A stretch of 64,000 nt of DNA from Myxococcota bacterium (lineage in GTDB: Bacteria; Myxococcota_A; UBA9160; SZUA-336), in contig CBDFGR010000001.1 in the NCBI GenBank assembly GCA_965247115.1, positions 32,001 to 96,000 on the forward strand, read 5' to 3'. A program made the translations under genes and the position numbers. Of the stretch, positions 1,358-10,810 are shown one piece after another (within the stretch, counting starts at the first letter, position 1; each line of letters begins with the position of its first letter). Under the pieces are notes generated by a model. It saw nothing but the letters and a program-made list of their open reading frames with translations, was not told where the DNA came from and did no database searches.

Positions 1358-1726
1358 GTGCGGGTGAACTCAGCGCTGAGGGTCCGGGAAAGCTTCCGGC
1401 GATGTTCGCTGGTTCTCGCCCTGCTCCTGGCGCAGAGCGGCTCGCTAGCCCAGGTCCACGCAGCGAGTCACGCGGAGCCCCCAGCCCTCGGGGCCGTCGC
1501 TCCGGGCGAGTTGCCGGGCAACCCACCCGTCGGTCACAACGAGCAGAGCTGCTCGGACTGTCTGGCGGGCTCGAAACTCGCCTCCGCCGCCCTCACCAGT
1601 TCGGCGAGCCTTGGGCAGCCGTGCGCGGGCGGCGCACCGATCGCCGCCGACCCATGGGCGACCCCCGAAGCCGCCCCGGATTTAATCCGGCGGCCCCGAG
1701 CTCCTCCGGCGAAGCGCCTGGCCTGA
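1358..1726 (+). CDS. DUF2946/CruR-like leader protein with CxxC and C-terminal RAPP motif
   Basis: Signal-like N-terminus, HNEQSCSDC, C-terminal PRAPP, directly upstream of a TonB-dependent receptor. Confidence 0.75.
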   Translation: MRVNSALRVRESFRRCSLVLALLLAQSGSLAQVHAASHAEPPALGAVAPGELPGNPPVGHNEQSCSDCLAGSKLASAALTSSASLGQPCAGGAPIAADPWATPEAAPDLIRRPRAPPAKRLA

Positions 1727-1845
1727 TCCGGCGGCGCCCCGCGCGCCGTACCGATCTCGCCCCGACCCGCCCCGAGGGGACCCGTGCGCGCGGTGTGCAC
1801 CGGTTCCGCCGGGGCCAGCGCCAAGGCCCGAGGAGCTTGGAACGA

Positions 1846-4050
1846 ATGAGAGTCAAGAGCCGACGCAATCCGTTTATCGCCCCGCTGCGCGCAATCGCCG
1901 CCCTGGGCGTCCTGTGCTGCACGGTCGCGCCGTTACCCGCGTGGGGCCAGGAACCGACGCCCGCCGCCGGAACGCCACCCACCTCGACCCACGGCTCGCA
2001 CGAGCCAATCGAAGAGATCGTCGTGACCGCTTCGCCGCTGGGTCGCGACGAAGCCAGCACGACCACGGCGATCAACGTGATCAGCCGGAATCATCTTCTG
2101 ACGCACGGCGGCTCCACGCTGGGCGAGGCCCTGGCTTCCGAGCCCGGAATTTCCACTTCGGGCTTCTCCGCGGGGTCAAGCCGGCCAGTGATTCGGGGAC
2201 AGTCCGGCATCCGCATCAAGACGACCGAGAACGGCCTGGGCACGGCCGACCTGGCCGCCATCAGCCCCGACCACGGGGTGCCGGTCAACCTGCTCATGGC
2301 CCAACGGATTGAGGTGCTGCGCGGCCCTTCGACGCTGCGATACGGCGGCACGGCGATCGGCGGTGTGGTGAATGTCCTGATCGACCGGGTGCCGAGCCGG
2401 GTCCCCCCAGGCGCTCTGAGCGGGGAGATCCTGGGCGCCTGGGGCAGCGCCGCGGAGCGCCGGGACGGGGCGTTCCTGCTCGACGGGGCGCTGGGCCGGC
2501 TGGGCTTGCACATCGACGGCGCGAAATGGCGTTCCGAAGACTACGAAGCCCCAGGTGCGAAGGTGCGCAACTCCCAGACCGACGGCTCCGCGTTTTCCGG
2601 CGGCCTGGCCTGGCTGGGCGATGGTTTCCGCCTGGGAGTTGCACGCTCGAGTTTCGAGAACGAGTACGGCGTCCCGGCGGGCGAGCACGTCATCGACCTG
2701 AGCAAGGACGTCTGGCACCTGGAAGCCGACTGGCTGGAGCCGGTTCCGGGCCTGTCTCGGATTGAACTGCGGGGGGCGTTCTCCGACTACGAGCACAGTG
2801 AGTTCGAAGGGGACCTCCAGGAGTCGGATTTCGATTCCGACGTATCCGAGCTGCGCATGGAAGTCCTGCACGAACCCCTGCTGGAGTCGGGGTCGCTGCG
2901 CGGGGCGCTGGGAGCGCACTACATTCGACGCAAGTTCGAAGTCACCAGCGAAGCCGATCCCTTCCTGGAGCCCAGCCGCACCGATACGTGGGCCCTGTAC
3001 GCGGTCGAGGAATGGCTGTTGTCCGATCGACTGACCGCGGAACTGTCGGCCCGCCTGGAGCGCGTCGAGATCGAAGGCTCGCTGCCGGGGGTGGCGCGAT
3101 GCGACCAGCGCTTCAACCCCTTCAGCGCCTCGTTCGGGCTGGTGTATCGCCCCGCCGACGGGGTTTCGCTCGCGCTGCGGGCCTCCTCCACGGAGCGCGC
3201 CCCCGACGCGACTGAGCTGTATTACCGGGGTGAGCATCACGCCACGGGAACCTACGAGATCGGCGACCCCGACCTGGACCTCGAACGGGCGGACGCGGCC
3301 GAACTCACGCTTCGCGTCCGGCGCGGGCGGTTCTCGCTCACGACCGGTCTCTTCTACACGAACTACAAGGACTACATCGACCTGACGGCCACGGGCCGGA
3401 TGATCGCCGACAAGCACGGCCACGACCACGGAGAAGAAGAGGAGCACGACGACGAGGACCATGACGAGGACGAGGATCATGGGGACGAAGACCATGACGA
3501 GGACGGGGATCACGACGAAGAAGACCACGAAGAAGGCGAGGAACACGACGATCACGAAGAAGAGGGAGACGGGCACGACGAGGGCGGGCTGATCGAGGCC
3601 GAGTTCCTGCAGCAGGACGCGGTCTTCTACGGCGGCGAACTCTGGCTCGACTACAATCTCTTTGAGTGGGCCGGGATCGAGTTCGGACTGGACGCGCAGT
3701 TCGACGCGGTGCGCGGCCGCCTGGACAGGGGAAACGTCCCGCGCCAGCCGCCCTTCCGCTACGGAGCGGGGCTTCACTTCCGCGGCGAACGCTTCGACGG
3801 GCGCGTCGGCTTCCTGCGCCACGCCCGCCAGAAGCGCACCGGCGCGCTCGAGACGTCGACCGACGCCTACACACTGTTGGAAGCTTCCCTCGCCGTGCGG
3901 CTGATCTCAGCGGGGAACCGCTTGCTGGAACTGGATCTGAGCGGACGCAATCTGCTCGACGAGCGCGCCCGAAACCACCTGAATTTCCGCAAGGACCTGT
4001 TCCTGCTGCCCGGGCGGTCGATCCGGGTTTTGCTGCGCGGGCGCTTTTGA
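1846..4050 (+). CDS. TonB-dependent metal receptor, ZnuD-like, with His/Asp/Glu-rich loop
   Basis: RBS AGGAG at 1831; signal peptide, EEIVVTASPL TonB box, RPVIRG plug, RIEVLRGPSTLRYG, C-terminal PGRSIRVLLRGRF; 12-His acidic insert at 3415-3582. Confidence 0.9.
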   Translation: MRVKSRRNPFIAPLRAIAALGVLCCTVAPLPAWGQEPTPAAGTPPTSTHGSHEPIEEIVVTASPLGRDEASTTTAINVISRNHLLTHGGSTLGEALASEPGISTSGFSAGSSRPVIRGQSGIRIKTTENGLGTADLAAISPDHGVPVNLLMAQRIEVLRGPSTLRYGGTAIGGVVNVLIDRVPSRVPPGALSGEILGAWGSAAERRDGAFLLDGALGRLGLHIDGAKWRSEDYEAPGAKVRNSQTDGSAFSGGLAWLGDGFRLGVARSSFENEYGVPAGEHVIDLSKDVWHLEADWLEPVPGLSRIELRGAFSDYEHSEFEGDLQESDFDSDVSELRMEVLHEPLLESGSLRGALGAHYIRRKFEVTSEADPFLEPSRTDTWALYAVEEWLLSDRLTAELSARLERVEIEGSLPGVARCDQRFNPFSASFGLVYRPADGVSLALRASSTERAPDATELYYRGEHHATGTYEIGDPDLDLERADAAELTLRVRRGRFSLTTGLFYTNYKDYIDLTATGRMIADKHGHDHGEEEEHDDEDHDEDEDHGDEDHDEDGDHDEEDHEEGEEHDDHEEEGDGHDEGGLIEAEFLQQDAVFYGGELWLDYNLFEWAGIEFGLDAQFDAVRGRLDRGNVPRQPPFRYGAGLHFRGERFDGRVGFLRHARQKRTGALETSTDAYTLLEASLAVRLISAGNRLLELDLSGRNLLDERARNHLNFRKDLFLLPGRSIRVLLRGRF

Positions 4051-4217: not shown

Positions 4218-4928
4218 ATGGCGCTGCTGCTCGTCGGTTGCACCTATCGGGTTCCGCTTCCGGTGATTCGGGAGGGTGAGCCCAGGAACATCGAGTACCG
4301 ACAGCTCGAGGTAGACGACTTCTGGGGCACTCCTTGGGGGGACTGCTTGGCGTTCACGTCCACGCACCTGAAATTTCGGCCAACGGAGCCCCCGATGGCT
4401 TACGAGCACAACGCCGATGGTGGCGTGACCGCAAGGATTGACGACGGGTTCGAGGTATACGCGATCATGGATCGAGCCATGTCTTTTTGGCACGTCCTAA
4501 AGGTCATTAGAGCAGAGCGAGAACAGCCAGAATATCGACGAGGCAGAAGAGCCGTTCCGACAGGAGAGAAAGGGGCTGGGAAGCTCTCCGTGCTCGAGCA
4601 TGAGCAGGGACACTTCGCTCTAACCGAGATCGCGGCCAGGCTGCTCACGAAGAACATGATGGTGCTTCAGGGCTCCGGTGCAACGGAGACGGAAGCCTCG
4701 GACGCATTGTGGAAGGAGAGCAATCGCGAATACGCGAAGGTCAGGGAAGGACTGAGTTCCGGCCACGAGAAGTACGACCTCGAATCGAACATATGGAATT
4801 GGATCCCTGACAACCAGTGGGAGTGGAGCCCTCACAACCAGAGGGAGTGGAGCCCTCACAACCAGAGCGTCTGGACGGAGTACTTCGATAAGAGACTGCG
4901 CATGACGGACGGCAATGGAGTGCGCTGA
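4218..4928 (+). CDS. DUF922-like putative Zn-dependent protease, lipoprotein
   Basis: LLVGC lipobox; LEHEQGHFALTEIAAR (HExxH plus E). Confidence 0.6.
   Translation: MALLLVGCTYRVPLPVIREGEPRNIEYRQLEVDDFWGTPWGDCLAFTSTHLKFRPTEPPMAYEHNADGGVTARIDDGFEVYAIMDRAMSFWHVLKVIRAEREQPEYRRGRRAVPTGEKGAGKLSVLEHEQGHFALTEIAARLLTKNMMVLQGSGATETEASDALWKESNREYAKVREGLSSGHEKYDLESNIWNWIPDNQWEWSPHNQREWSPHNQSVWTEYFDKRLRMTDGNGVR
4811..4867 (+). repeat. ~2.4 x 24-bp tandem repeat (NQ[W/R]EWSPH)
   Basis: CAACCAG[T/A]GGGAGTGGAGCCCTCA repeated. Confidence 0.9.
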
Positions 4929-4991
4929 AGCCCACCCCCGGGCCTGCGTACTATGAACAAACTTTCCTCGCGTTCACAGGTCATAGATCGC

Positions 4992-5180
4992 TCAGAAGAA
5001 AGCTTTCACGACTGTCGCCGCAATCGCCGCTGCGACCGCGATGCCGCTCAGAACTCCGCCCAATATCCAGACCTTCAAATTGCTGATGTCGGTCTTGGTT
5101 GCGATGTTCTTATCCCTATTTTCCTGGATGGCGACCACTCGCTCATCTATCCGAGCAAGTTGCACCTCAAGTGCTCTCAC
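4992..5180 (-). CDS. Small coiled-coil + C-terminal TM protein (DUF1640/Bdr-like)
   Basis: VRALEVQLARIDERV...ATKTDISNLKVWILGGVLSGIAVAAAIAA; GTG start overlaps upstream TGA. Confidence 0.55.
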   Translation of the reverse strand: MRALEVQLARIDERVVAIQENRDKNIATKTDISNLKVWILGGVLSGIAVAAAIAATVVKAFF

Positions 5181-5272
5181 TTGGAAGCGCCTACTCGGGC
5201 TACACGACCCGGGTACTGGCCGATGAACGCACACGCCTCTCTGTAGGTGACTGGCTGCAATTCGAGGCTCAC
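5177..5272 (-). pseudogene. 31-codon remnant, N-terminus resembling XF1762-family phage protein
   Basis: GTG-SLELQPVTYREACAFIGQY then divergent to TGA; starts 17 nt after repeat copy at 5290. Confidence 0.35.
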
Positions 5273-5323
5273 TCCGACGATTCTTCGCCGACGGGATGGA
5301 TGCCCGACGCACTCGGCCACTCT

Positions 5324-5632
5324 TCAGCCTGCTCCGATTTTTCGACCGATCTGCGTCGGAGATGCTCCCATCGCAAGGAGCGCACGCACGAGCAGATCAA
5401 TCGTTGCTTCTCCCTTCTCCAGTTTCGCTACACGTGGCTGGCTCGATCCCATTCGAGCTGCAAGCTGCGTCTGGCTCACTCGTCCTTTGGCTCTCTTCTC
5501 CTTCACTGCCTTTGCGAGGGCGACCTTCATCTCGATGAATGCCATCTCGCTGTCCGAGAGATCCAGGAGTTCCTGAACCGTCCCGATCTGCCAGCCGTCG
5601 GCCTCAAGGGCCTCCAGTTCCTTCTTCTTCAT
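5324..5632 (-). CDS. XRE-family HTH antitoxin (HigA-like)
   Basis: VSQTQLAARMGSSQPRVAKLEKG HTH; downstream of RelE-like toxin. Confidence 0.85.
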   Translation of the reverse strand: MKKKELEALEADGWQIGTVQELLDLSDSEMAFIEMKVALAKAVKEKRAKGRVSQTQLAARMGSSQPRVAKLEKGEATIDLLVRALLAMGASPTQIGRKIGAG

Positions 5633-5716
5633 GGGTGAGCTTCTTCCTGAGTTGGGGGGGCTGGACCTGGATCCGTTGGGGGGGACCTTCAGTCCATCGC
5701 GGGTCTCAGTCGAGAC

Positions 5717-6073
5717 CTACCGTGTGCTGCCTCTCCTCTTTGCTTCGTCATAGCGCGCGAGGCGCTGTTTGGTTGTTTCGATGACGCCCTTGGGGGTCCG
5801 CTTCGTATCCTTGTCGAACCACTGGATCACCACGATCCGGTCGGCGTCGATTCGGTAGAGAATTCGCCATGTCGCCTTCGCCTTTTCGTCCTTGATTCGA
5901 AGCTCATGCACCCTCCGCCCGATCGCGGGCATCGGCCGAGAGTGGGGCATCGAGAGCGACTCGCCTTGCTGCAGTTGCCGGAGCAGGAACCCTGCCCATA
6001 GGCGAGCTTCCTGACTCATCGGCGGTGTGTGCCATTCTGCGGCGAGCCAAGCAATCGGCTTGTCCTCTGCCAT
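5717..6073 (-). CDS. RelE/ParE-superfamily toxin (Gp49/DUF891, HigB-like)
   Basis: LSMPHSRPMPAIGRRVHELRI...WRILYRID...FDKDTKRTP pattern. Confidence 0.85.
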   Translation of the reverse strand: MAEDKPIAWLAAEWHTPPMSQEARLWAGFLLRQLQQGESLSMPHSRPMPAIGRRVHELRIKDEKAKATWRILYRIDADRIVVIQWFDKDTKRTPKGVIETTKQRLARYDEAKRRGSTR

Positions 6074-6082
6074 ATGCCGAGA

Positions 6083-6110
6083 ATGATATACCTATTTCGG
6101 TATATGTCAA
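6083..6110 (-). promoter_or_regulatory. TA promoter with operator palindrome
   Basis: Minus strand TTGACA-N16-TATCAT; inverted repeat ATATACC-N6-GGTATAT (6086-6105) fills the spacer; ATG about 10 nt after -10. Confidence 0.75.
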
Positions 6111-6208
6111 GGGGTTGGCTGCCCGTCATTACTTCTGTTTGGGAATTATCCCTGAAACTTTCCACGCCCGAGCCGCCAGCGCTTCGTCTCCGACGGTTTG
6201 CGAGGTCA

Positions 6209-7165
6209 CTACGGTCCGATCAGCAAGGCTGTGGTGTTTACGTTGAAGCGATGTGTTTCGAGTTCACCTTCAAGACGGTATTTGGCAAGTTCAAGGTAAG
6301 CTGGCTCAATCTCGATTCCTATGGAATTCCGGCCCATGTGCATCGCAGCGATCAGGGTTGAACAGGTCCCGACAAATGGGTCTAGTACAGTATCCCCAGC
6401 GAACGAAAACATGCGGATCAGGCGCTCAGCAACTTCCGTGGGATAGGGCGCCGGGTGTCCGTTCCGCGTCGAAGCCCCTTTAATGTCCGTCCACGCCGAC
6501 TTGAACCAGCTCCGAACCTCCGCTTTGGTCAGCATCGAGAGTGCCTGTTGCTCGGCGGACGGCGAGCGGTAACCTGCTCCCTTCCTGAAGAACAGAATGT
6601 ATTCCACATCATTCTTAATCACGCCGCCGGGCTGGTAGGGCTTTCCGTAGTAGCGCGCCCCGTTGCCGCTCGCCTCTTGGAGGCCGTTAGAGATCTTGTG
6701 CCAGAAGATCGGCGTAAGACAGTCCAGACCCAGCGCGCGGGATCGGACCTGAATATCCGCATGTAACGGCACGACGTAGTGTTTCCCGTTCTTTTTCCTC
6801 GACATACACACGTCGCCGACCACGCAGCAGATCCTCCCACCTGGCACCAACACGCGCTCACACTCGCGCCATACGCGATCTAGAGACACCAGAAACTGCT
6901 CGTAATCTTCTATATCGCCAAGCTGGTCTTTGGCAGCGGGATGCTTTTTCAACGTCCAGTATGGCGGGGATGTGACAATCAGATGTATGGAGCCCGCTTC
7001 TATCTGATCCAGCTTTCTCGCGTCGCCCAGGTGGAGCGTGTGTGTCGTCTTATCGAACGGCTCCGGCCACTGGCTATCCCGATGTCTCTGGTTGGCCTCA
7101 AGCAGATTTTCGAGGCTTCCAGATTTCTCCCGAACCGGGTCATAGACATTGAGCGGCTCGTTCAT
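6209..7165 (-). CDS. Site-specific DNA methyltransferase (N4-C/N6-A, beta class)
   Basis: IVTSPPY catalytic motif before HPAPYP and VLDPFVGT AdoMet motif. Confidence 0.9.
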   Translation of the reverse strand: MNEPLNVYDPVREKSGSLENLLEANQRHRDSQWPEPFDKTTHTLHLGDARKLDQIEAGSIHLIVTSPPYWTLKKHPAAKDQLGDIEDYEQFLVSLDRVWRECERVLVPGGRICCVVGDVCMSRKKNGKHYVVPLHADIQVRSRALGLDCLTPIFWHKISNGLQEASGNGARYYGKPYQPGGVIKNDVEYILFFRKGAGYRSPSAEQQALSMLTKAEVRSWFKSAWTDIKGASTRNGHPAPYPTEVAERLIRMFSFAGDTVLDPFVGTCSTLIAAMHMGRNSIGIEIEPAYLELAKYRLEGELETHRFNVNTTALLIGP

Positions 7166-8232
7166 CGTTCGCCTTCTTGACTGACGGGATGGATGCCCGT
7201 CTGCAATCGCGAGCTCAGCACTCGGAATGCCCTCGCAGCCACAGCCGGTACGACTCCGTTACCGAGGCAGCGCAATCGGTCCATCCGAGAGGGAACCCCA
7301 TCAGCCACTCGACCCATGTCGGGTTCAGTGAGCCACCAGCCATCGCCGGAAGATCCGGGCCGTTCGTTCTTGCCCGCTCCTTCGCCGCCCCCTCCGGGGT
7401 CCTGCGCCCCTTGATGCTGTCGGCTGCTCGGGGCGTCGGCCACACCAAGACCACCTCGCTCAACGGTCGAGCATTCGTCCCGATCAGATTTTGCTTCGCG
7501 TCGCCTGCGGTCGGCGTGGGCCATCTCCCATTCCGCGCCATCGTCTCCAGGCTCTCGCGCACCGGACCCACCCGGCCCATCCCGCCGCCCTGATTCGTCC
7601 CGTAGGTCTGGGCGCTGGGCGTCGGGAACATCCTGACGGCATTTTCCAGCCCGACTTGGCGCTTCCCCTTGTCGGTCTTTCCTTTCGCCAGAATGTCCTC
7701 GGGCTTCATGGTCCGTCCCCCGTTTGGCACGCCGGGAGTAGGCCAAGATGAAGACGCGCCGCCTGAGGTGCGGTGCTCCGCTTCCGGCTGCACTGAACAC
7801 ACTCCACTCCGCATCGAACCCGAGCCCGGCCAGGTCTCCGAGAATGTGTCCCAGCCCGTGACCAAGGAGGCCTGGCACGTTCTCCAGGAACACGTAGCGG
7901 GGTCCCACCTCGCGAACGATGCGGGTAATGTCGGGCCAGAGCCAGCGGTCATCGTCTACGCCCCGCTGGTCCCCGGCCACGCTGAACGGCTGGCATGGGA
8001 AACCGGCAGAGATGAGAGCCACCTCACCGCTAAAGAGGCTGCTTGGGAAGGTCGCGAGATCGTCCCAGATAGGCGCGCGATCCAAGGCCTGGTCTTCCAT
8101 CCGCGCCACGAGACAGGCCGCTGCGTAGGCGTCCCGCTCGCAGTAACCCATACAGCGATACCGTGGTCCGAGGGCAAGCTTGAGTCCCAGCTCAAGTCCT
8201 CCAACTCCGGCACATAGAGCCACACCGTTCAA
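7162..8232 (-). CDS. C5-cytosine DNA methyltransferase, large (alpha) polypeptide
   Basis: TTG start with RBS GGAGGGAG, overlapping upstream TGA; LCAGVGG (I), AGFPCQPFS (IV), ENVPGL (VI), PHLRRRVFI (VIII), LGNGVVP (X). Confidence 0.85.
   Translation of the reverse strand: MNGVALCAGVGGLELGLKLALGPRYRCMGYCERDAYAAACLVARMEDQALDRAPIWDDLATFPSSLFSGEVALISAGFPCQPFSVAGDQRGVDDDRWLWPDITRIVREVGPRYVFLENVPGLLGHGLGHILGDLAGLGFDAEWSVFSAAGSGAPHLRRRVFILAYSRRAKRGTDHEARGHSGERKDRQGEAPSRAGKCRQDVPDAQRPDLRDESGRRDGPGGSGAREPGDDGAEWEMAHADRRRREAKSDRDECSTVERGGLGVADAPSSRQHQGAQDPGGGGEGAGKNERPGSSGDGWWLTEPDMGRVADGVPSRMDRLRCLGNGVVPAVAARAFRVLSSRLQTGIHPVSQEGER
7215..7952 (-). CDS. Overlapping-frame ORF with WPTP repeats and motif-IX-like segment; putative beta polypeptide of the C5 MTase
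   Basis: WPTP/FPTP x4 and LNPTWVEWLMGFPLGWTD, nested in the Dcm gene in another frame. Confidence 0.6.
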   Translation of the reverse strand: MTAGSGPTLPASFARWDPATCSWRTCQASLVTGWDTFSETWPGSGSMRSGVCSVQPEAEHRTSGGASSSWPTPGVPNGGRTMKPEDILAKGKTDKGKRQVGLENAVRMFPTPSAQTYGTNQGGGMGRVGPVRESLETMARNGRWPTPTAGDAKQNLIGTNARPLSEVVLVWPTPRAADSIKGRRTPEGAAKERARTNGPDLPAMAGGSLNPTWVEWLMGFPLGWTDCAASVTESYRLWLRGHSEC

Positions 8233-8618
8233 TCTCCCTCCGTACCGACGGGATGGATGAACGTCGGTCGAACGTACCGGAGCGGATCGATCAGCTCCCT
8301 CATTCGCTTGTAGCACTTGGGAGCCATCCGGAATCGAGCCTCCTCGTGGTAGAGAGCAGCGAGTTCGTACCAGTGCTCCGCCAAGGCGCCCCAGACTGGA
8401 TCAAGCGCCTCCATCTCGGGTAGCCGTTCCTTCCACTCTGGGAACCTCTCGAGGAGTCGCAGGCACCGGCCCAAGTCGTCGGGATCAAGAGGGTAGGCGC
8501 AGGCGTCGGGGTCCTCACGGTCGGGATCAATCCCGGCCATGTATCGAGCGAGCGCCATCGACGACATGCCCGTATCCCTACCCGCCATCCACCGCATGAC
8601 CTCGCGGAGATCAGCCAT
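8229..8618 (-). CDS. Phage hypothetical protein
   Basis: DTGMSS...YPLDPDDLGRCLRLLERFPEW; coupled to neighbours. Confidence 0.65.
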   Translation of the reverse strand: MADLREVMRWMAGRDTGMSSMALARYMAGIDPDREDPDACAYPLDPDDLGRCLRLLERFPEWKERLPEMEALDPVWGALAEHWYELAALYHEEARFRMAPKCYKRMRELIDPLRYVRPTFIHPVGTEGD

Positions 8619-8877
8619 TGTCTCGACAAGCGGGATGGATGCCCGTCATTGGACCATCGCTTCGCGTAGGTCCGCAGACACGCCGATGCTCTTCGACAGG
8701 GATGTCGAGTGCCCCCAAGATCCATCGGCGGGTGCGGAGCTGGGGTCGATGCCAGCCGCGCTCGATGGCGCGGACGGTGGACCAGTGGACACCAGCCCGC
8801 TCGGCCAGTTCCTCTCGGGAGAGCAGCCGTGTCTCGCGTTCGTAGCGTAGATCGTTGGGGTCGCCGTTCGTCGTCAT
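8611..8877 (-). CDS. XRE-family HTH DNA-binding protein (frame open upstream to 8958)
   Basis: LSREELAERAGVHWSTVRAIERG HTH. Confidence 0.75.
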   Translation of the reverse strand: MTTNGDPNDLRYERETRLLSREELAERAGVHWSTVRAIERGWHRPQLRTRRWILGALDIPVEEHRRVCGPTRSDGPMTGIHPACRDNG

Positions 8878-8954
8878 GGAATGTCCGATTGACTGCCCGG
8901 GTTGGCTGCCCGTCTGCAATTGCGCCTCTTCCGGTGTGGGCTCCTGATCTGTCA

Positions 8955-9278
8955 TCACTTCTCCTCCTGACCCACGCTGTGGGCACCCGTCGGCGCACAG
9001 TCAGCGACAGTCAGGCCATCGGGAAAGATGATGTGCTCGGGGTCCTTGAAGTGGAACAGCCCGTAGCCGTTGCAGTGACACGCCCAGGAGATGCCGATGT
9101 CACCACGGAACTCCAGCATCTCCATGCCCTTACGTTTCTCACAGAGGCGCCCGCACATCTGGATCGCGACGCACTTTCGCTCGTTGGTAAGCTCAAACTT
9201 CTTGGGTGCTGGCTCCGGAAGCTCTGGCAGATCCGGACCGCACGCGACGAGCACGAGGGCGAGCAAGGTTCGCTTCAC
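8955..9278 (-). CDS. Cys-rich lipoprotein, hypothetical
   Basis: MKRTLLALVLVAC lipobox; RBS GAGGAGG. Confidence 0.65.
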   Translation of the reverse strand: MKRTLLALVLVACGPDLPELPEPAPKKFELTNERKCVAIQMCGRLCEKRKGMEMLEFRGDIGISWACHCNGYGLFHFKDPEHIIFPDGLTVADCAPTGAHSVGQEEK

Positions 9279-9312
9279 TTTCCCTCCTCAGGAACGCCGG
9301 GATGGATGACCG

Positions 9313-9657
9313 TCACCACCCCATCCCCACCGTTGTCTTGATCCGCTCCCGCGCCTGGTCGTGCAGGTAGTCGTGCTTGAGGTCCATCCCGAGGCCTCGG
9401 CGGCCGAGCTCGATCGCGACCTTCACAGTCGTCCCCGATCCGACGAATGGATCGAACACAAGCCCGCCGGCCGGACAGCCCGCGAGGATGCAGCGCTTCG
9501 CGAGCTCGGTGGGGAAGACGGCCATGTGCGCGCCGTGGTAGGGCTCTGTGGCCAGGCTCCAGACAGTGCGCGCCCGCGAGTCCCTCTGCGCGTGCTGGAT
9601 CTTGCGCTCGCGCTGGTCGGCCAGAGGAATCGCTCGAGCGTCGCCACGGACCAGCAC
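9313..9657 (-). pseudogene. Internally deleted N4/N6 DNA methyltransferase
   Basis: N-terminal LVRGDARAIPLAD joined to C-terminal RTVWSLATEPYHGAHMAVFP...DPFVGSGTT; SPPY catalytic motif missing. Confidence 0.7.
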
Positions 9658-9863
9658 TCAGTCTCCTTGACCCGCGGGTTGGCTGCCCGTCAGGCGTACC
9701 GCTCGAAGGTGGCGGCTGTAGCTGGAGAGTTCGGGATCTTCGAGGACCTGGTTGACTGTCTCGTGCACGCGTCGTCGCGGCTCCGTCGGCAACTTTGCGA
9801 GTGGTCTCTGTCGCGTAAGTGCCCGAGAACATTGGCTTGATGTAACCCATACACGCCAACGTA

Positions 9864-9891
9864 GCGGGTTCAAATCCCGCCCCGGGCACCA
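9864..9891 (+). other. att site: duplicated 3' end of a tRNA (probably tRNA-Leu)
   Basis: GCGGG-TTCAAAT-CCCGC T-arm + CCCGGGC-A-CCA, with no D/anticodon arms upstream. Confidence 0.8.
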
Positions 9892-9934
9892 ACAACCAAA
9901 GAGGCGGCGGCGAAGGACCCCACCTACGGTGGTC

Positions 9935-10810
9935 TCACCTGTTGAGTATCAGCACTGCGGCCGGAGGACTCGCCGTAGGGTTACTTGGGTTGAAGTCGTC
10001 TATCACGGTACACACGATAATCGGATGGCTCATGGCGCCGCCCGCGGTCAACTGCCGAACGACTGCGTGCCCACCAAAGAAGCTGAAAGTGTCGTTCTCC
10101 TCGACAACGACGGGTGTGGTGGGGGAACCAAGTCCGCCACCCAGATGGATCCGTGTCTGGCCGAGTTCGCTCAGCAAGCCATTGTCGCTCGTGTACTGGA
10201 AGCCCAGTCCGCCTGTGTCACTTCTCCTGTCGATGTTCGTTTCGAAGAATCCGCTGGTTATGTCCGCAGAGTTGAGTTCCTGTCCCATGGCCTCTAGGAC
10301 CTCGGCGTCGGTATCCTCCAAGGCGGCGGCATTCCGTGCCCAGCACTCTGCCTCCGCAGGAGCTGGAGGGTAGAACCCCGGAGTGATGTCGAAATCCATC
10401 ATGATCCCGTCGTTGTGGGTGTTGCCGGCGTCGAAAATATCGAACTCAGAATTGCCGATTTGAATCTTCTTGGAGCTGTCGGTGCCCACCCGCACGGGAA
10501 ACGGGGGGAGTGGCGTTGTGTTTTGGTCATCGTCTGGGTAGTCGATGCCGCCTTCCGCGTCGTCCGTCGATGATTGCCTCCCGAAGTTCAAGGTGGCGCC
10601 CTCGGGTGCGTCGTTTGGTGGCCCGGTGTTGCAGTGCTTATGATGAGTGCCCACCTCCCTGTTGCAGGGGTGCGCCTGCGCAGGAGCGACCGCCAAGCCC
10701 AGTACCAGCACAAAGACTGAAAACGCGCAGAGTGCTGTGAATGTTCCTGGCAAGGCACAGAGCACCACTGATCGAGACCAGGCTTTGGATGAGAAATTCT
10801 TTGAGTTCAT
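9935..10810 (-). CDS. Secreted hypothetical protein
   Basis: RBS GAAGGAG; signal peptide ending AVAPAQA; mature N-terminus HPCNREVGTHHKHC; acidic. Confidence 0.65.
   Translation of the reverse strand: MNSKNFSSKAWSRSVVLCALPGTFTALCAFSVFVLVLGLAVAPAQAHPCNREVGTHHKHCNTGPPNDAPEGATLNFGRQSSTDDAEGGIDYPDDDQNTTPLPPFPVRVGTDSSKKIQIGNSEFDIFDAGNTHNDGIMMDFDITPGFYPPAPAEAECWARNAAALEDTDAEVLEAMGQELNSADITSGFFETNIDRRSDTGGLGFQYTSDNGLLSELGQTRIHLGGGLGSPTTPVVVEENDTFSFFGGHAVVRQLTAGGAMSHPIIVCTVIDDFNPSNPTASPPAAVLILNR

What the first reader, a model, noticed from the sequence alone, without database searches (positions are those of the whole stretch)
5290..9691. Candidate novel gene-cassette system: eight direct-oriented 19-bp sites each precede one gene
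SEEN: plus-strand copies are GACGGG-ATGGATG-CCCGAC (5290), AAGGGG-TTGGCTG-CCCGTC (6109), GACGGG-ATGGATG-CCCGTC (7183), GACGGG-ATGGATG-AACGTC (8247), AGCGGG-ATGGATG-CCCGTC (8629), CCCGGG-TTGGCTG-CCCGTC (8896), GCCGGG-ATGGATG-ACCGTC (9296) and CGCGGG-TTGGCTG-CCCGTC (9673). The layout is 6-bp inverted arms around a 7-bp asymmetric spacer. On the coding (minus) strand, seven of eight lie 10-18 nt before a start codon (5272, 7165, 8232, 8618, 8877, 9278, 9657), several with a clear RBS in between; the eighth abuts the -35 of the TA promoter. Each interval (about 270-1070 bp) holds essentially one gene or one TA pair. By eye I found no good copy in the other ~59 kb. KNOWN: tyrosine-recombinase core sites are inverted arms around 6-8 bp asymmetric spacers, and integron arrays consist of promoterless single-gene cassettes plus self-promoted TA cassettes. 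These sites are not attC or dif/pdif. INFERENCE: a phage-borne cassette array shuffled or excised by site-specific recombination, with the recombinase outside the window. Alternatives are start-associated regulatory sites or mRNA hairpins.
Basis: partly seen in the sequence, partly recalled or inferred. Interest (0 to 1): 0.88.

Follow-up and report, generated by a model that had tools for sequence, protein, structure and literature searches.

The report
Shuffled prophage genes sharing one joint
Prophages of an uncultured myxobacterium link their accessory genes (DNA methylases, a toxin-antitoxin pair, small unknowns) with one 17-19-letter DNA joint, and six copies of this gene row in the same genome show whole genes swapped, lost and re-ordered exactly at that joint, likely by recombination between joints.

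Summary
The motif is rare in the 5.17-Mb genome: 24 true copies, all in seven prophage or island loci.

The array is the att-proximal accessory operon of a temperate phage family. One copy lies in a roughly 44-kb prophage with capsid, portal and terminase genes.

The six paralogous arrays share modules at 97-100% identity, but in different orders and sets. The crossovers fall inside the 17-nt core GACGGGCAKCCAWCCCG. The core comes in two spacer classes, CATCCAT and CAGCCAA, which never mix.

The joint is usually translated. One fixed frame through it ends in a stop that overlaps the next start codon in 8 of 10 junction types.

So "cassettes shuffled at the sites" is supported. A dedicated site-specific recombinase is not. 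No recombinase lies in the arrays, the flanking integrases are only 24-30% identical, and no attC-like structure exists.

My best reading is short-homology exchange at a conserved joint, likely helped by the phages' own RecT- or Sak4-type annealases. An integron-like system with a minimal 6-7-6 core remains possible (about 0.2).

Closest known: Cluster K SAS (GGG-N7-CCC), T4 PeSLs and L5 stoperators. This scan has noted similar conserved phage joints on other DNA before.

The parts
9673..9691 (-). Joint S1, class CAGCCAA; precedes methylase M1 (GTG 9657)
9296..9314 (-). Joint S2, class CATCCAT, left arm GACGGT; its first two bases complete M1's TGA stop; precedes M2 (GTG 9278, GTGA overlap in frame 2)
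8896..8914 (-). Joint S3, class CAGCCAA; precedes or lies inside the HTH gene M3 (ATG 8877, or GTG 8958 overlapping M2's stop)
8629..8647 (-). Joint S4, class CATCCAT; inside the 3' tail of M3; precedes M4 (ATG 8618, ATGGCTGA)
8247..8265 (-). Joint S5, class CATCCAT, left arm GACGTT; inside the 3' tail of M4; precedes M5 (TTG 8232, TTGA)
7183..7201 (-). Joint S6, class CATCCAT, perfect 6-7-6; inside the 3' tail of M5; precedes M6 (ATG 7165, ATGA)
6109..6127 (-). Joint S7, class CAGCCAA with CCCC; abuts the -35 of the TA promoter
5290..5308 (-). Joint S8, class CATCCAT, left arm GTCGGG; followed by GTG 5272 (GTGA)
9313..9657 (-). M1: N4/N6 DNA methylase, here an internally deleted 114-aa remnant (330 aa in two other copies)
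   Evidence: Pfam PF01555; about 0.65 kb missing relative to L002
8955..9278 (-). M2: 107-aa protein with a lipoprotein-like signal; no family
8611..8877 (-). M3: XRE-type HTH protein (88 aa, or 115 aa from GTG 8958)
8229..8618 (-). M4: 129-aa protein of phage family phrog_1229 (DTGMSS...DPxDLGRCLRLL); function unknown
7162..8232 (-). M5: C5 cytosine DNA methylase; only the N-terminal half matches the family in this frame
6209..7165 (-). M6: N4/N6 DNA methylase, 318 aa, full-length match
6083..6110 (-). Sigma-70-like promoter of the TA pair (TTGACA-16-TATCAT)
5324..6073 (-). M7: toxin-antitoxin pair, Gp49/HigB-like toxin (5717-6073) and HTH antitoxin (5324-5632)
4992..5272 (-). M8 region: 31-codon ORF (5272-5177) coupled by GTGA to a 62-codon membrane ORF (5180-4992); gene model uncertain
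9821..9892 (+). Degenerate tRNA-like att remnant 130 nt outside S1; its last 29 nt equal C1:279037-279065

Best explanation
The 17-19-bp sites are a conserved gene-to-gene joint in the att-proximal accessory operon of a family of temperate Myxococcota phages, and whole genes have been exchanged, deleted and re-ordered with crossovers inside the joint; the exchange is likely driven by short-homology recombination between joints of the same spacer class, predicted to be helped by the phages' own RecT- or Sak4-type annealases, not by a dedicated site-specific recombinase.

Shown:
- Each module carries the left arm of its 3' joint and the bases after CCCG of its 5' joint wherever it goes.
- Each module has a fixed spacer class on each side.
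- The joint is embedded in translated sequence, and one fixed frame through it stops at the next start codon. Any upstream gene can therefore be coupled to any downstream gene.

Inferred:
- The joint is the only sequence shared by otherwise unrelated genes. Rare annealing or strand exchange there, during phage replication or between co-resident prophages, would produce in-frame recombinants that still express their genes, so they persist.
- The joint is kept uniform by being copied in each exchange, and perhaps by a cis role in coupled translation or protein binding. That role is untested.
For: Motif specificity:
- 8 observed against 0.57 expected in the window.
- 24 of 28 PWM hits in 5.17 Mb lie in seven loci, and the other 4 lie inside long ORFs.
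- G000 has 21 hits at up to 1 mismatch. Each of 40 relatives has 0-2.

Mosaic structure:
- Paralogous arrays share 97-100% identical modules in different orders. The orders are A M1-M8; B without M5; C DUF5131-M3-M4-M6-x-M1-M8'; E M4'-M6-x-106aa; F M1-M2-131aa-M5.
- 7 of 10 distinct breakpoints in the window array lie within 25 nt of a site. My hand binomial gives about 3e-5 for 12% site coverage.

Hybrid joints:
- GACGTT always travels with M4 and GACGGT with M1. tcggtacgg travels with M5 and tcagtcaag with M6.
- 9 of 9 modules seen with two different partners keep the same spacer class.

Discordant histories: A against B shows 0 differences in 998 bp across M2-M4, but 3 in 268 (M1), 4 in 1044 (M6) and 7 in 789 (M7).

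Phase lock:
- The frame-2 stop lies within -3 to +13 of the start in 8 of 10 junction types.
- The genome null is 14.8% per frame (P = 7.7e-6), or 36.5% for the best frame (P = 0.0065).

Phage context:
- Capsid, P22-type portal and TerL genes lie in element C.
- A RecT-like gene sits next to int in A and C. AAA_24 (Sak4-like) plus DUF669 sit next to int in E, and that end is shared with F.
- The motif is confined to the first ~5 kb after attL.

Independent contigs of four runs from one sample carry the same junction variants.
Against: - The identity shared by recombining joints is only 11-13 nt in two events (S2 x S8 and S5 x S6). This is well below the minimal pairing segments quoted for RecA (31-34 bp) and Red-beta (23-27 bp) in PMC3945230 (passages read). 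Repeated use of so short a patch is what a site-specific enzyme would give.
- The 6-7-6 dyad with a 7-bp spacer better conserved than the arms is the layout of a tyrosine-recombinase core, and homology alone does not explain it.
- Island B (8.4 kb) has no annealase gene.
- No related array was found outside this genome, so conservation over time could not be tested.
- Four or five breakpoints lie 11-14 nt upstream of a joint, or where one partner has no joint. Not all exchanges used the core.
Confidence: 0.5

Rival explanations
1. A dedicated site-specific cassette system. The joint would be a minimal 6-7-6 core site, with inverted arms GACGGG/CCCGTC around a 7-bp overlap. A trans-acting recombinase, most plausibly a tyrosine recombinase, would cut and rejoin it. 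The two spacer classes would behave like incompatible lox variants. In the circular phage the order would be int - attP - array, which recalls intI - attI - cassettes.
For: - The consensus has a dyad with a 7-bp spacer, and the spacer is invariant within each class.
- All exchanges stay within a class, 9 of 9.
- Crossovers fall inside 11-17 nt of identity, below the published pairing minima.
- The cassettes are promoterless and co-oriented, plus a self-promoted TA pair.
- The arrays start 0.13-0.8 kb inside attL, so they follow int across attP in the excised form.
- The genome holds 32 Phage_integrase matches that could act in trans.
Against: - No recombinase lies in or next to any array.
- The integrases of the array-bearing elements are unrelated at 24-30% identity and use different tRNA cores.
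- The arms are imperfect in 5 of 8 window copies.
- There is no attC-like folded structure.
- No new junctions appear in the run contigs, which is weak because contigs drop rare variants.
- Several breakpoints lie 11-14 nt outside the core.
Confidence: 0.2
2. Primarily a cis-regulatory site. An asymmetric protein-binding sequence on DNA or mRNA would be placed before each gene of the operon to control elongation or coupled translation, in the manner of L5 stoperators or Cluster K start-associated sequences. Recombination at it would be only a by-product of its being repeated.
For: - The sites have one orientation and a fixed place 10-18 nt before starts. They are restricted to the non-structural accessory operon.
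- The GGG-N7-CCC core is the same architecture as the Cluster K SAS GGGATAGGAGCCC (PMC3203893, passages read).
- The position is phase-locked to the stop/start overlap.
- An XRE HTH gene (M3) sits in three of the arrays.
Against: - The joint contains no SD, promoter or terminator.
- There is no conserved RNA fold and no compensatory arm changes.
- There is no unusual complementarity to 16S rRNA: 7 nt, the mode of 500 shuffles.
- The motif is absent from the rest of the prophages, unlike stoperators.
- Neighbouring co-oriented genes in arrays D and E lack it.
- Two discrete spacer classes without intermediates are not expected for a single binding protein.
Confidence: 0.25
3. Assembly artefact. 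The different module orders would be chimeric joins made by the assembler at a short repeat in a metagenome-assembled genome.
For: The genome is a MAG, the modules are near-identical repeats, and the independent unitigs break at the joints.
Against: - Logan contigs of four runs carry each junction variant with flank on both sides of the joint: M1|M8, M4|M6, 131aa|M5 and x|M1 (tables 5 and 7).
- Unitig depths scale roughly with the assembled copy numbers (tables 2 and 8).
- Each array has its own unique chromosomal flanks and att remnants.
Confidence: 0.03

Closest known systems
Start-associated sequences (SAS) of Cluster K mycobacteriophages (Pope et al. 2011, PMC3203893; passages read)
   Same: Both are short asymmetric repeats with symmetric GGG-N7-CCC outer bases. 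Both occur in one orientation, lie just upstream of starts of unrelated genes, and are restricted to the non-structural part of a temperate phage. Both sometimes contain the upstream gene's stop codon and are rare in the host genome. The function of SAS was still unverified in 2025 (PMC12699233, passages read).
   Different: SAS contains the Shine-Dalgarno AGGAG and sits 3-7 bp from the start. Here the joint has no SD, sits 10-18 nt upstream with a separate SD after it, is 17-19 bp long, comes in two spacer classes, and is shown to be the crossover point of gene shuffling.
PeSL (promoter-early stem-loop) cassettes of T4-type phages (Arbiol et al. 2010, PMC2839356; abstract and passages read)
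   Same: Both are conserved short elements flanking non-essential genes in plastic regions. Insertions, deletions and replacements between related genomes occur at them. Whether a dedicated recombinase or the phage's general recombination acts is an open question in both. PeSLs also have a GGGG...CCCC stem motif.
   Different: PeSLs are composite sigma-70 promoter plus terminator units that isolate each gene transcriptionally. Here there is no promoter or terminator, and the genes are translationally chained. The phages here are temperate prophages, not lytic myoviruses. Mini-circles have not been looked for.
Stoperators of Cluster A mycobacteriophages (L5 gp71 sites; search listing and abstract of PMC9283540 seen, details recalled)
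   Same: Both are asymmetric sites of 13-17 bp at gene junctions, in one orientation relative to transcription, in many copies per phage.
   Different: Stoperators are spread over the whole genome. Here the motif is confined to one ~5-kb operon. Repressor binding is unknown here.
Integron cassette arrays (IntI, attI, attC; recalled)
   Same: Both are co-oriented, promoterless single-gene cassettes, with TA cassettes carrying their own promoter. Recombination sites lie between genes and partly overlap ORF ends.
   Different: There is no IntI next to the array. The sites are 19 bp, not 57-141-bp folded attC. No attI is present. The system is phage-borne.
Conserved stop/start joints in phage mini-gene arrays noted earlier by this scan (e1-9749229, e1-8237631, e1-6120994, e1-5729657, e1-8183147)
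   Same: Unrelated phage accessory genes are chained by a short, letter-perfect joint, and related phages swap genes exactly there. The shared protein endings are a by-product of the joint.
   Different: Those joints include the SD and start and link tiny genes. Here the joint lies upstream of the SD and has a dyad layout and two classes. It links full-size genes (methylases of 318-358 aa, a TA pair). The comparison set is six paralogous copies within one bacterial genome.

Membership tests
Integron | IntI-type tyrosine integrase gene adjacent to the array, with attI | tested here: not met
   No recombinase ORF lies in or beside any of the arrays (Pfam). The nearest Phage_integrase genes are phage integrases at the opposite prophage end. 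They were not tested for the IntI-specific insert.
Integron | attC sites: 57-141-bp imperfect palindromes with R''-L''/L'-R' boxes | tested here: not met
   The conserved element is 17-19 bp, and the flanks are module-specific right up to its ends.
Integron | Co-oriented promoterless cassettes | tested here: met
   All genes are on one strand. The only sigma-70-like promoter belongs to the TA pair.
Cluster K SAS | 13-bp asymmetric GGG-N7-CCC repeat in one orientation, in the non-structural region | tested here: met
   The cores are GGGCATCCATCCC and GGGCAGCCAACCC. All copies are co-oriented and confined to the accessory operon.
Cluster K SAS | Contains the SD (AGGAG) and lies 3-7 bp from the start codon | tested here: not met
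   No SD lies in the motif. The start codon is 10-18 nt after the 19-mer, with a separate SD in between.
PeSL | Strong sigma-70 promoter plus stem-loop terminator in each element | tested here: not met
   One promoter-like site in 5.2 kb, belonging to the TA pair, and no terminator at the joints.
PeSL | Recombination between elements, giving indels, replacements and mini-circles | tested here: inconclusive
   Indels, replacements and re-ordering at the joints are shown. Circles could not be tested because only contigs of the runs are held.
Stoperator | Many copies across the whole phage genome, bound by the immunity repressor | tested here: not met
   No copies lie outside the first ~5 kb of elements A-F. 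Binding is not testable with these tools.
Tyrosine-recombinase core site | Inverted binding arms around a 6-8-bp overlap that must match between partners | tested here: inconclusive
   The consensus is 6-7-6, and exchanges occur only within a spacer class (9 of 9). However, the arms are imperfect in 5 of 8 window copies, and only CGGG/CCCG is well kept.
Tyrosine-recombinase core site | A cognate recombinase | tested here: not met
   None is consistently linked to the arrays. The element integrases are 24-30% identical to each other.
pdif / Xer modules | 28-bp 11-6-11 XerC/XerD sites in alternating orientation around modules | tested here: not met
   The sites are 19 bp and all in direct orientation.

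The most novel reading that the evidence does not exclude
A phage-borne, integron-like gene-cassette system. It would use a minimal 19-bp 6-7-6 core site in two mutually incompatible spacer classes, be serviced in trans by a recombinase encoded elsewhere, and move methylase, toxin-antitoxin and other accessory genes between co-resident prophages with unrelated backbones. The design would preserve translational coupling after every exchange.
Probability: 0.2. Interest if true: 0.85.

Novelty: new variant of a known kind. Interest (0 to 1): 0.6.

Why it matters
The modular theory of phage evolution has long proposed linker sequences between genes as the places where modules are exchanged. Clear natural cases are few (PeSLs in T4-type phages), and the function of the similar Cluster K SAS is still unknown.

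This case is unusually clean. One genome holds six near-identical but differently ordered arrays, the crossovers can be placed within 11-17 nt, two joint classes never mix, and a reading-frame design keeps genes coupled after any swap.

The cargo is anti-restriction-type: three to four orphan DNA methylases, plus a TA pair. The joint may therefore be how these temperate phages rapidly re-assort counter-defence genes.

It also gives a simple test bed, two joints flanking a marker. That could decide whether such joints work through short homology with phage annealases or through an unrecognised site-specific enzyme.

Tried and rejected
- **RNA hairpin.** MFE folds of 12 junctions give no common structure and no SD sequestration. 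Arm mismatches are not compensated.
- **Pairing with 16S rRNA (TURBS-like).** The longest complement is 7 nt, the mode of 500 shuffled motifs.
- **Known RNA family.** Only a sub-threshold tRNA hit at the att remnant.
- **Promoter in each unit.** None apart from the TA promoter.
- **Motif in other genomes.**
  - 40 relatives are at background.
  - IMG/VR gave 12 single hits.
Of the 80 loci held, none is an array.
- **Own motifs around homologous genes.** The 16 loci encoding M4-family proteins and the two closest M1 homologues among 400 Myxococcota genomes, at 52% identity, have no comparable repeat.
- **The phage's own integrase as the enzyme.** The att cores (tRNA-Gly, tRNA-Lys, tRNA-Leu and an unidentified tRNA-like remnant) and the integrases differ between elements. 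A resemblance of CGGG-N7-CCCG to the T-arm core of the window's att remnant was judged too weak to use.
- **Junctions or circles in reads.** Only Logan contigs of four runs of one sample are held, and they show only junctions already in the assembly. This says nothing about rare forms.
- **Island boundaries from the same-genus genome G002.** Synteny resumes only at window position ~13.7 kb, so this was uninformative.
- **The four PWM hits outside the arrays.** They lie inside long ORFs and are chance matches.

Full report
**1. The observation**

A degenerate 17-mer finds 8 copies at up to 2 mismatches, all on the + strand between 5290 and 9691. Shuffles give 0.57 expected and never more than 2.

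Read on the coding (minus) strand, the core is GACGGGCAKCCAWCCCG. There are two spacer classes. CATCCAT occurs five times in the window and CAGCCAA three times. The two variable spacer positions co-vary, and no hybrid occurs in any array.

The site at 6109 abuts the -35 of a TTGACA-16-TATCAT promoter. This is the only sigma-70-like promoter in 4800-10000.

- The inverted arms are imperfect in 5 of 8 copies, with no compensating changes.
- Most sites are not intergenic, because upstream ORFs read through them.
- The GTG at 5272 opens only a 31-codon ORF. It ends in a GTGA overlap with a 62-codon membrane ORF.

**2. The motif is not a common genomic word**

The window is G000:C1:32001-96000 of a 5.17-Mb, 3-contig, 66% G+C genome. 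Earlier notes of this scan call it an uncultured Myxococcota lineage. I did not check that label.

| Scan of the genome | Result |
|---|---|
| Core, exact | 11 |
| Core, up to 1 mismatch | 21 |
| Core, up to 2 mismatches | 30 |
| PWM, at least 14 bits | 28 hits |

Of the 28 PWM hits, 24 fall in seven loci:
- C1 37292-41675, the window (8)
- C2 134965-137088 (5)
- C2 237026-239886 (4)
- C2 762926 (1)
- C3 1180938-1182392 (2)
- C3 2391373 (1)
- C3 2565748-2566530 (3)

The other 4 hits lie inside long ORFs and are chance matches.

Forty related genomes have 0-2 hits each at up to 1 mismatch, against 21 in G000. The reversed-pattern control gives 0-1 per strand in each genome.

**3. What the genes are**

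In coding order the window array is as follows (Pfam, PHROGs):

| Unit | Following joint | Content |
|---|---|---|
| M1 | S1 | N4/N6 methylase, here an internally deleted 114-aa remnant; two other copies are 330 aa |
| M2 | S2 | 107-aa lipoprotein-like protein |
| M3 | S3 | XRE HTH protein |
| M4 | S4 | 129-aa protein of phrog_1229 |
| M5 | S5 | C5 methylase |
| M6 | S6 | N4/N6 methylase, 318 aa |
| M7 | S7 | Gp49/HigB-like toxin plus HTH antitoxin, with their own promoter |
| M8 | S8 | small membrane ORFs |

M4 belongs to a widespread family of unknown function, marked by DTGMSS...DPxDLGRCLRLLERFPEW.

**4. The arrays belong to prophages**

Each array starts 0.13-0.8 kb inside a displaced tRNA 3' fragment (attL) and reads inward.

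| Element | Description |
|---|---|
| A | Shares a 4.66-kb RecT-int end with C at 99% identity |
| B | 8.4-kb island: attL - array - five small ORFs - integrase - tRNA-Gly |
| C | ~44-kb prophage with Phage_capsid_3, P22-type portal and gpA-type terminase; also a RusA-like resolvase, a replication initiator and a RecT-like annealase next to its integrase |
| E | AAA_24 (Sak4-like) plus DUF669 next to its integrase; this end is shared with F |
| F | Array begins 260 nt inside a tRNA-Lys attL fragment |

The motif is confined to the first ~5 kb of every element and is absent from the rest. In the excised circular phage, the order would be annealase - int - attP - array, all co-oriented. This order is my inference from the prophage maps.

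**5. Shuffling at the joints**

BLAST of the arrays against one another gives blocks of 97-100% identity whose order differs:

| Element | Module order |
|---|---|
| A | M1 M2 M3 M4 M5 M6 M7 M8 |
| B | M1 M2 M3 M4 M6 M7 |
| C | DUF5131 M3 M4 M6 x M1 M8' |
| D | x M1' ... |
| E | M1' ... M4' M6 x 106aa |
| F | M1 M2 131aa M5 |

In the window array, 7 of 10 distinct block ends lie within 25 nt of a joint (S1, S2, S3, S5, S6, S7, S8). The other three are an internal M1 deletion, a break inside M4 next to a transposase-like gene in E, and an indel in M5. With about 12% of the array lying within 25 nt of a joint, my hand binomial gives roughly 3e-5.

The junction sequences show hybrid joints:
- The left-arm variant GACGTT always follows M4, whether M5 or M6 comes next.
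- GACGGT always follows M1, whether M2 or M8 comes next.
- GGCGGG follows 131aa.
- The bases after CCCG always go with the downstream module: tcggtacgg with M5, tcagtcaag with M6, tcggcgaag with M8.

The crossovers therefore lie within CAKCCAWCCCG.

Nine of nine modules seen with two different partners keep the same spacer class on that side. Exchange occurs only between like joints.

Module histories are discordant. A and B are identical over M2-M4 (0 differences in 998 bp). They differ in M1 (3 in 268), M6 (4 in 1044) and M7 (7 in 789).

The backbones that carry these near-identical modules are otherwise unrelated or much more diverged, at 82-95% identity.

Not every break is in the core. 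The 3' ends of M5, M6 and M7 break 11-14 nt upstream of a joint where the partner copy has none. Two joints carry 10-11-nt internal deletions.

**6. Are the junctions real?**

Logan contigs of four runs, all from one sample and possibly the source of the genome, break at the joints. Their loose ends carry the M1|M8, M4|M6, 131aa|M5 and x|M1 junctions. Unitig depths roughly follow the assembled copy numbers. No junction absent from the assembly was seen. Contigs drop rare variants, and no raw reads are held.

**7. The joint is translated and phase-locked**

One frame through the joint reads ACG GGC AKC CAW CCC, giving TGIHP or TGSQP. The real frame of M3, M4, M5, x, 131aa, a 55-aa ORF in B and a short ORF that overlaps M2's stop all run through the joint in this frame. 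M1 and the ORF before S1 instead stop at the TGA formed with the first two bases of the joint.

In 8 of 10 distinct downstream modules this frame meets its first stop between -3 and +13 of the next start codon. The forms are TGAGTG, GTGA, TTGA, ATGA and ATGGCTGA. In one module it is in frame with the gene. Only the TA unit, which has its own promoter, escapes the pattern.

I took 1,460 crude genes with an SD from this genome as a null. A frame chosen at random does this in 14.8% of cases, and the best frame in 36.5%. This gives P = 7.7e-6 and P = 0.0065 for 8 of 10.

After an exchange the tail of the upstream protein changes. M4 ends ...FIHPVGTEGD before M5 and ...FIHPVSQEGER before M6. The stop/start overlap is kept either way.

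**8. What the joint is not**

- No common RNA fold and no SD sequestration.
- No unusual 16S complementarity.
- No Rfam family.
- No promoter or terminator.
- No attC-like length or structure.

**9. Who does the exchange?**

No recombinase gene lies in or beside any array. The genome has 32 Phage_integrase and 3 Resolvase matches. The integrases of the array-bearing elements are only 24-30% identical to one another and use different tRNA cores. This argues against an integron-like platform or the phage's own Int as the enzyme.

The complete elements do encode single-strand annealing proteins: RecT-like in A and C, Sak4-like AAA_24 plus DUF669 in E and F. Such proteins are known to make phage mosaics by relaxed homologous recombination (PMC3945230, abstract and passages; PMC5499656, abstract only).

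Against a pure homology mechanism, two events used only 11-13 nt of identity. The same paper quotes minimal pairing segments of 31-34 bp for RecA and 23-27 bp for Red-beta. The 6-7-6 layout, with a spacer better kept than its arms, is also what a tyrosine-recombinase core looks like.

My weights are:
- about 0.5 for short-homology exchange at a conserved joint
- 0.2 for a dedicated site-specific system
- 0.25 for a primarily regulatory site at which recombination is incidental
- 0.03 for an assembly artefact

**10. Comparison with what is known**

The closest described element is the Cluster K mycobacteriophage SAS, GGGATAGGAGCCC. It shares the GGG-N7-CCC architecture, the asymmetry, the single orientation and the position before starts of unrelated non-structural genes. 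Its function is unknown (PMC3203893, passages; PMC12699233, passages). SAS contains the SD and sits 3-7 bp from the start. Our joint does neither.

PeSLs of T4-type phages are the closest in behaviour: recombination between conserved elements shuffles ORFs and produces mini-circles (PMC2839356). PeSLs, however, are promoter-terminator units.

Stoperators are genome-wide. Integron attC and pdif sites fail on length, structure, orientation or integrase.

This scan has noted conserved stop/start joints in phage mini-gene arrays on other DNA before (e1-9749229, e1-8237631, e1-6120994, e1-5729657, e1-8183147, e1-5931638). I did not test those notes.

The present case differs in five ways:
- It links full-size genes.
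- The joint lies upstream of the SD.
- The joint has a dyad layout.
- It has two non-mixing classes.
- It offers six paralogous arrays within one bacterial genome.

**11. Limits**

No related array was found outside this genome:
- relatives
- IMG/VR
- metagenome contigs, with the scan truncated
- M4-family loci
- the closest M1 homologues among 400 Myxococcota genomes

Conservation over evolutionary time is therefore untested. Gene models come from a crude GC3-based ORF picker. Several prophages are rearranged or decayed, and I did not resolve their full history.

**12. Verdict**

The enzyme is unknown. I class the finding as a new variant of a known kind (conserved phage linker joints), with interest 0.6.

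Noticed in passing
window 9313-9657; L001 8973-10004: The window's M1 methylase lacks about 0.65 kb present in the 330-aa copies of elements C and F. Element B's copy matches in two overlapping pieces in different frames, so it is probably frameshifted. The most widespread cassette is therefore decaying in several copies.
   Followed up: partly
window 7162-8232: The C5 methylase ORF is open in one frame. However, a WPTP-rich stretch ending NPTWVEWLMGFPLGWTD, which by my recollection looks like a target-recognition domain, is in another frame (7215-7952). Pfam matches only the N-terminal half. Possibly two frame changes or a decayed gene. The copy in F has a 114-bp insertion.
   Followed up: partly
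window 1402-4050: The TonB-dependent receptor ORF carries a ~60-residue His/Asp/Glu-only insert (HDHGEEEEHDDEDHDEDEDHGDEDHDED...). It also has a long Arg/Pro-rich N-terminal extension that may be an over-called start.
   Followed up: no
whole genome (G000): The genome has 32 Phage_integrase matches and about 35 displaced tRNA or tmRNA 3' fragments, including tandem ones at tRNA-Gly, tRNA-Thr and tRNA-Pro. It is unusually crowded with integrative elements.
   Followed up: partly
C1:1354-2102, C2:278633-279380, C3:5241-5988, C3:2634119-2634892: Four 98-99% identical integrase genes each sit beside a tRNA-Lys or a tRNA-Lys-like 50-nt fragment. Two of them lie within 6 kb of contig ends, so they probably break the assembly.
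   Followed up: partly
window 9821-9892 versus C1:279037-279065; C3:2564454 versus C3:2634119: The att fragments next to arrays A and F are inverted relative to their full-length partners, or paired with the wrong integrase type. This suggests large rearrangements or chimeric prophages, possibly made by recombination between the arrays themselves.
   Followed up: no
L002 ~8755-8780 and L001 ~8940-8965: Two joints carry 10-11-nt internal deletions between short direct repeats (GGGCAG...GGGCAG and CGGG...CGGG). The deletions remove the spacer and right arm, leaving dead joints at array edges.
   Followed up: partly
L002 12250-17850 (element C, just after the array): More methylation genes follow the array without joints: a D12 adenine methylase, an MTaX1 protein, a full-length C5 methylase and a 439-aa phrog_9592 protein. 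One prophage thus carries five or more DNA methylase genes.
   Followed up: no
L001 8722-8889: A 55-aa ORF with a CPCC...H...H zinc-finger-like pattern lies between attL and M1 of island B. It reads through a degenerate joint in the same frame as the other upstream genes.
   Followed up: no
C1 ~5150-5510 (rc) and C3 ~1214500-1215450: A ~0.3-kb segment near the integrase end of elements A and C matches many overlapping registers in element E. This indicates a tandem repeat array there.
   Followed up: no
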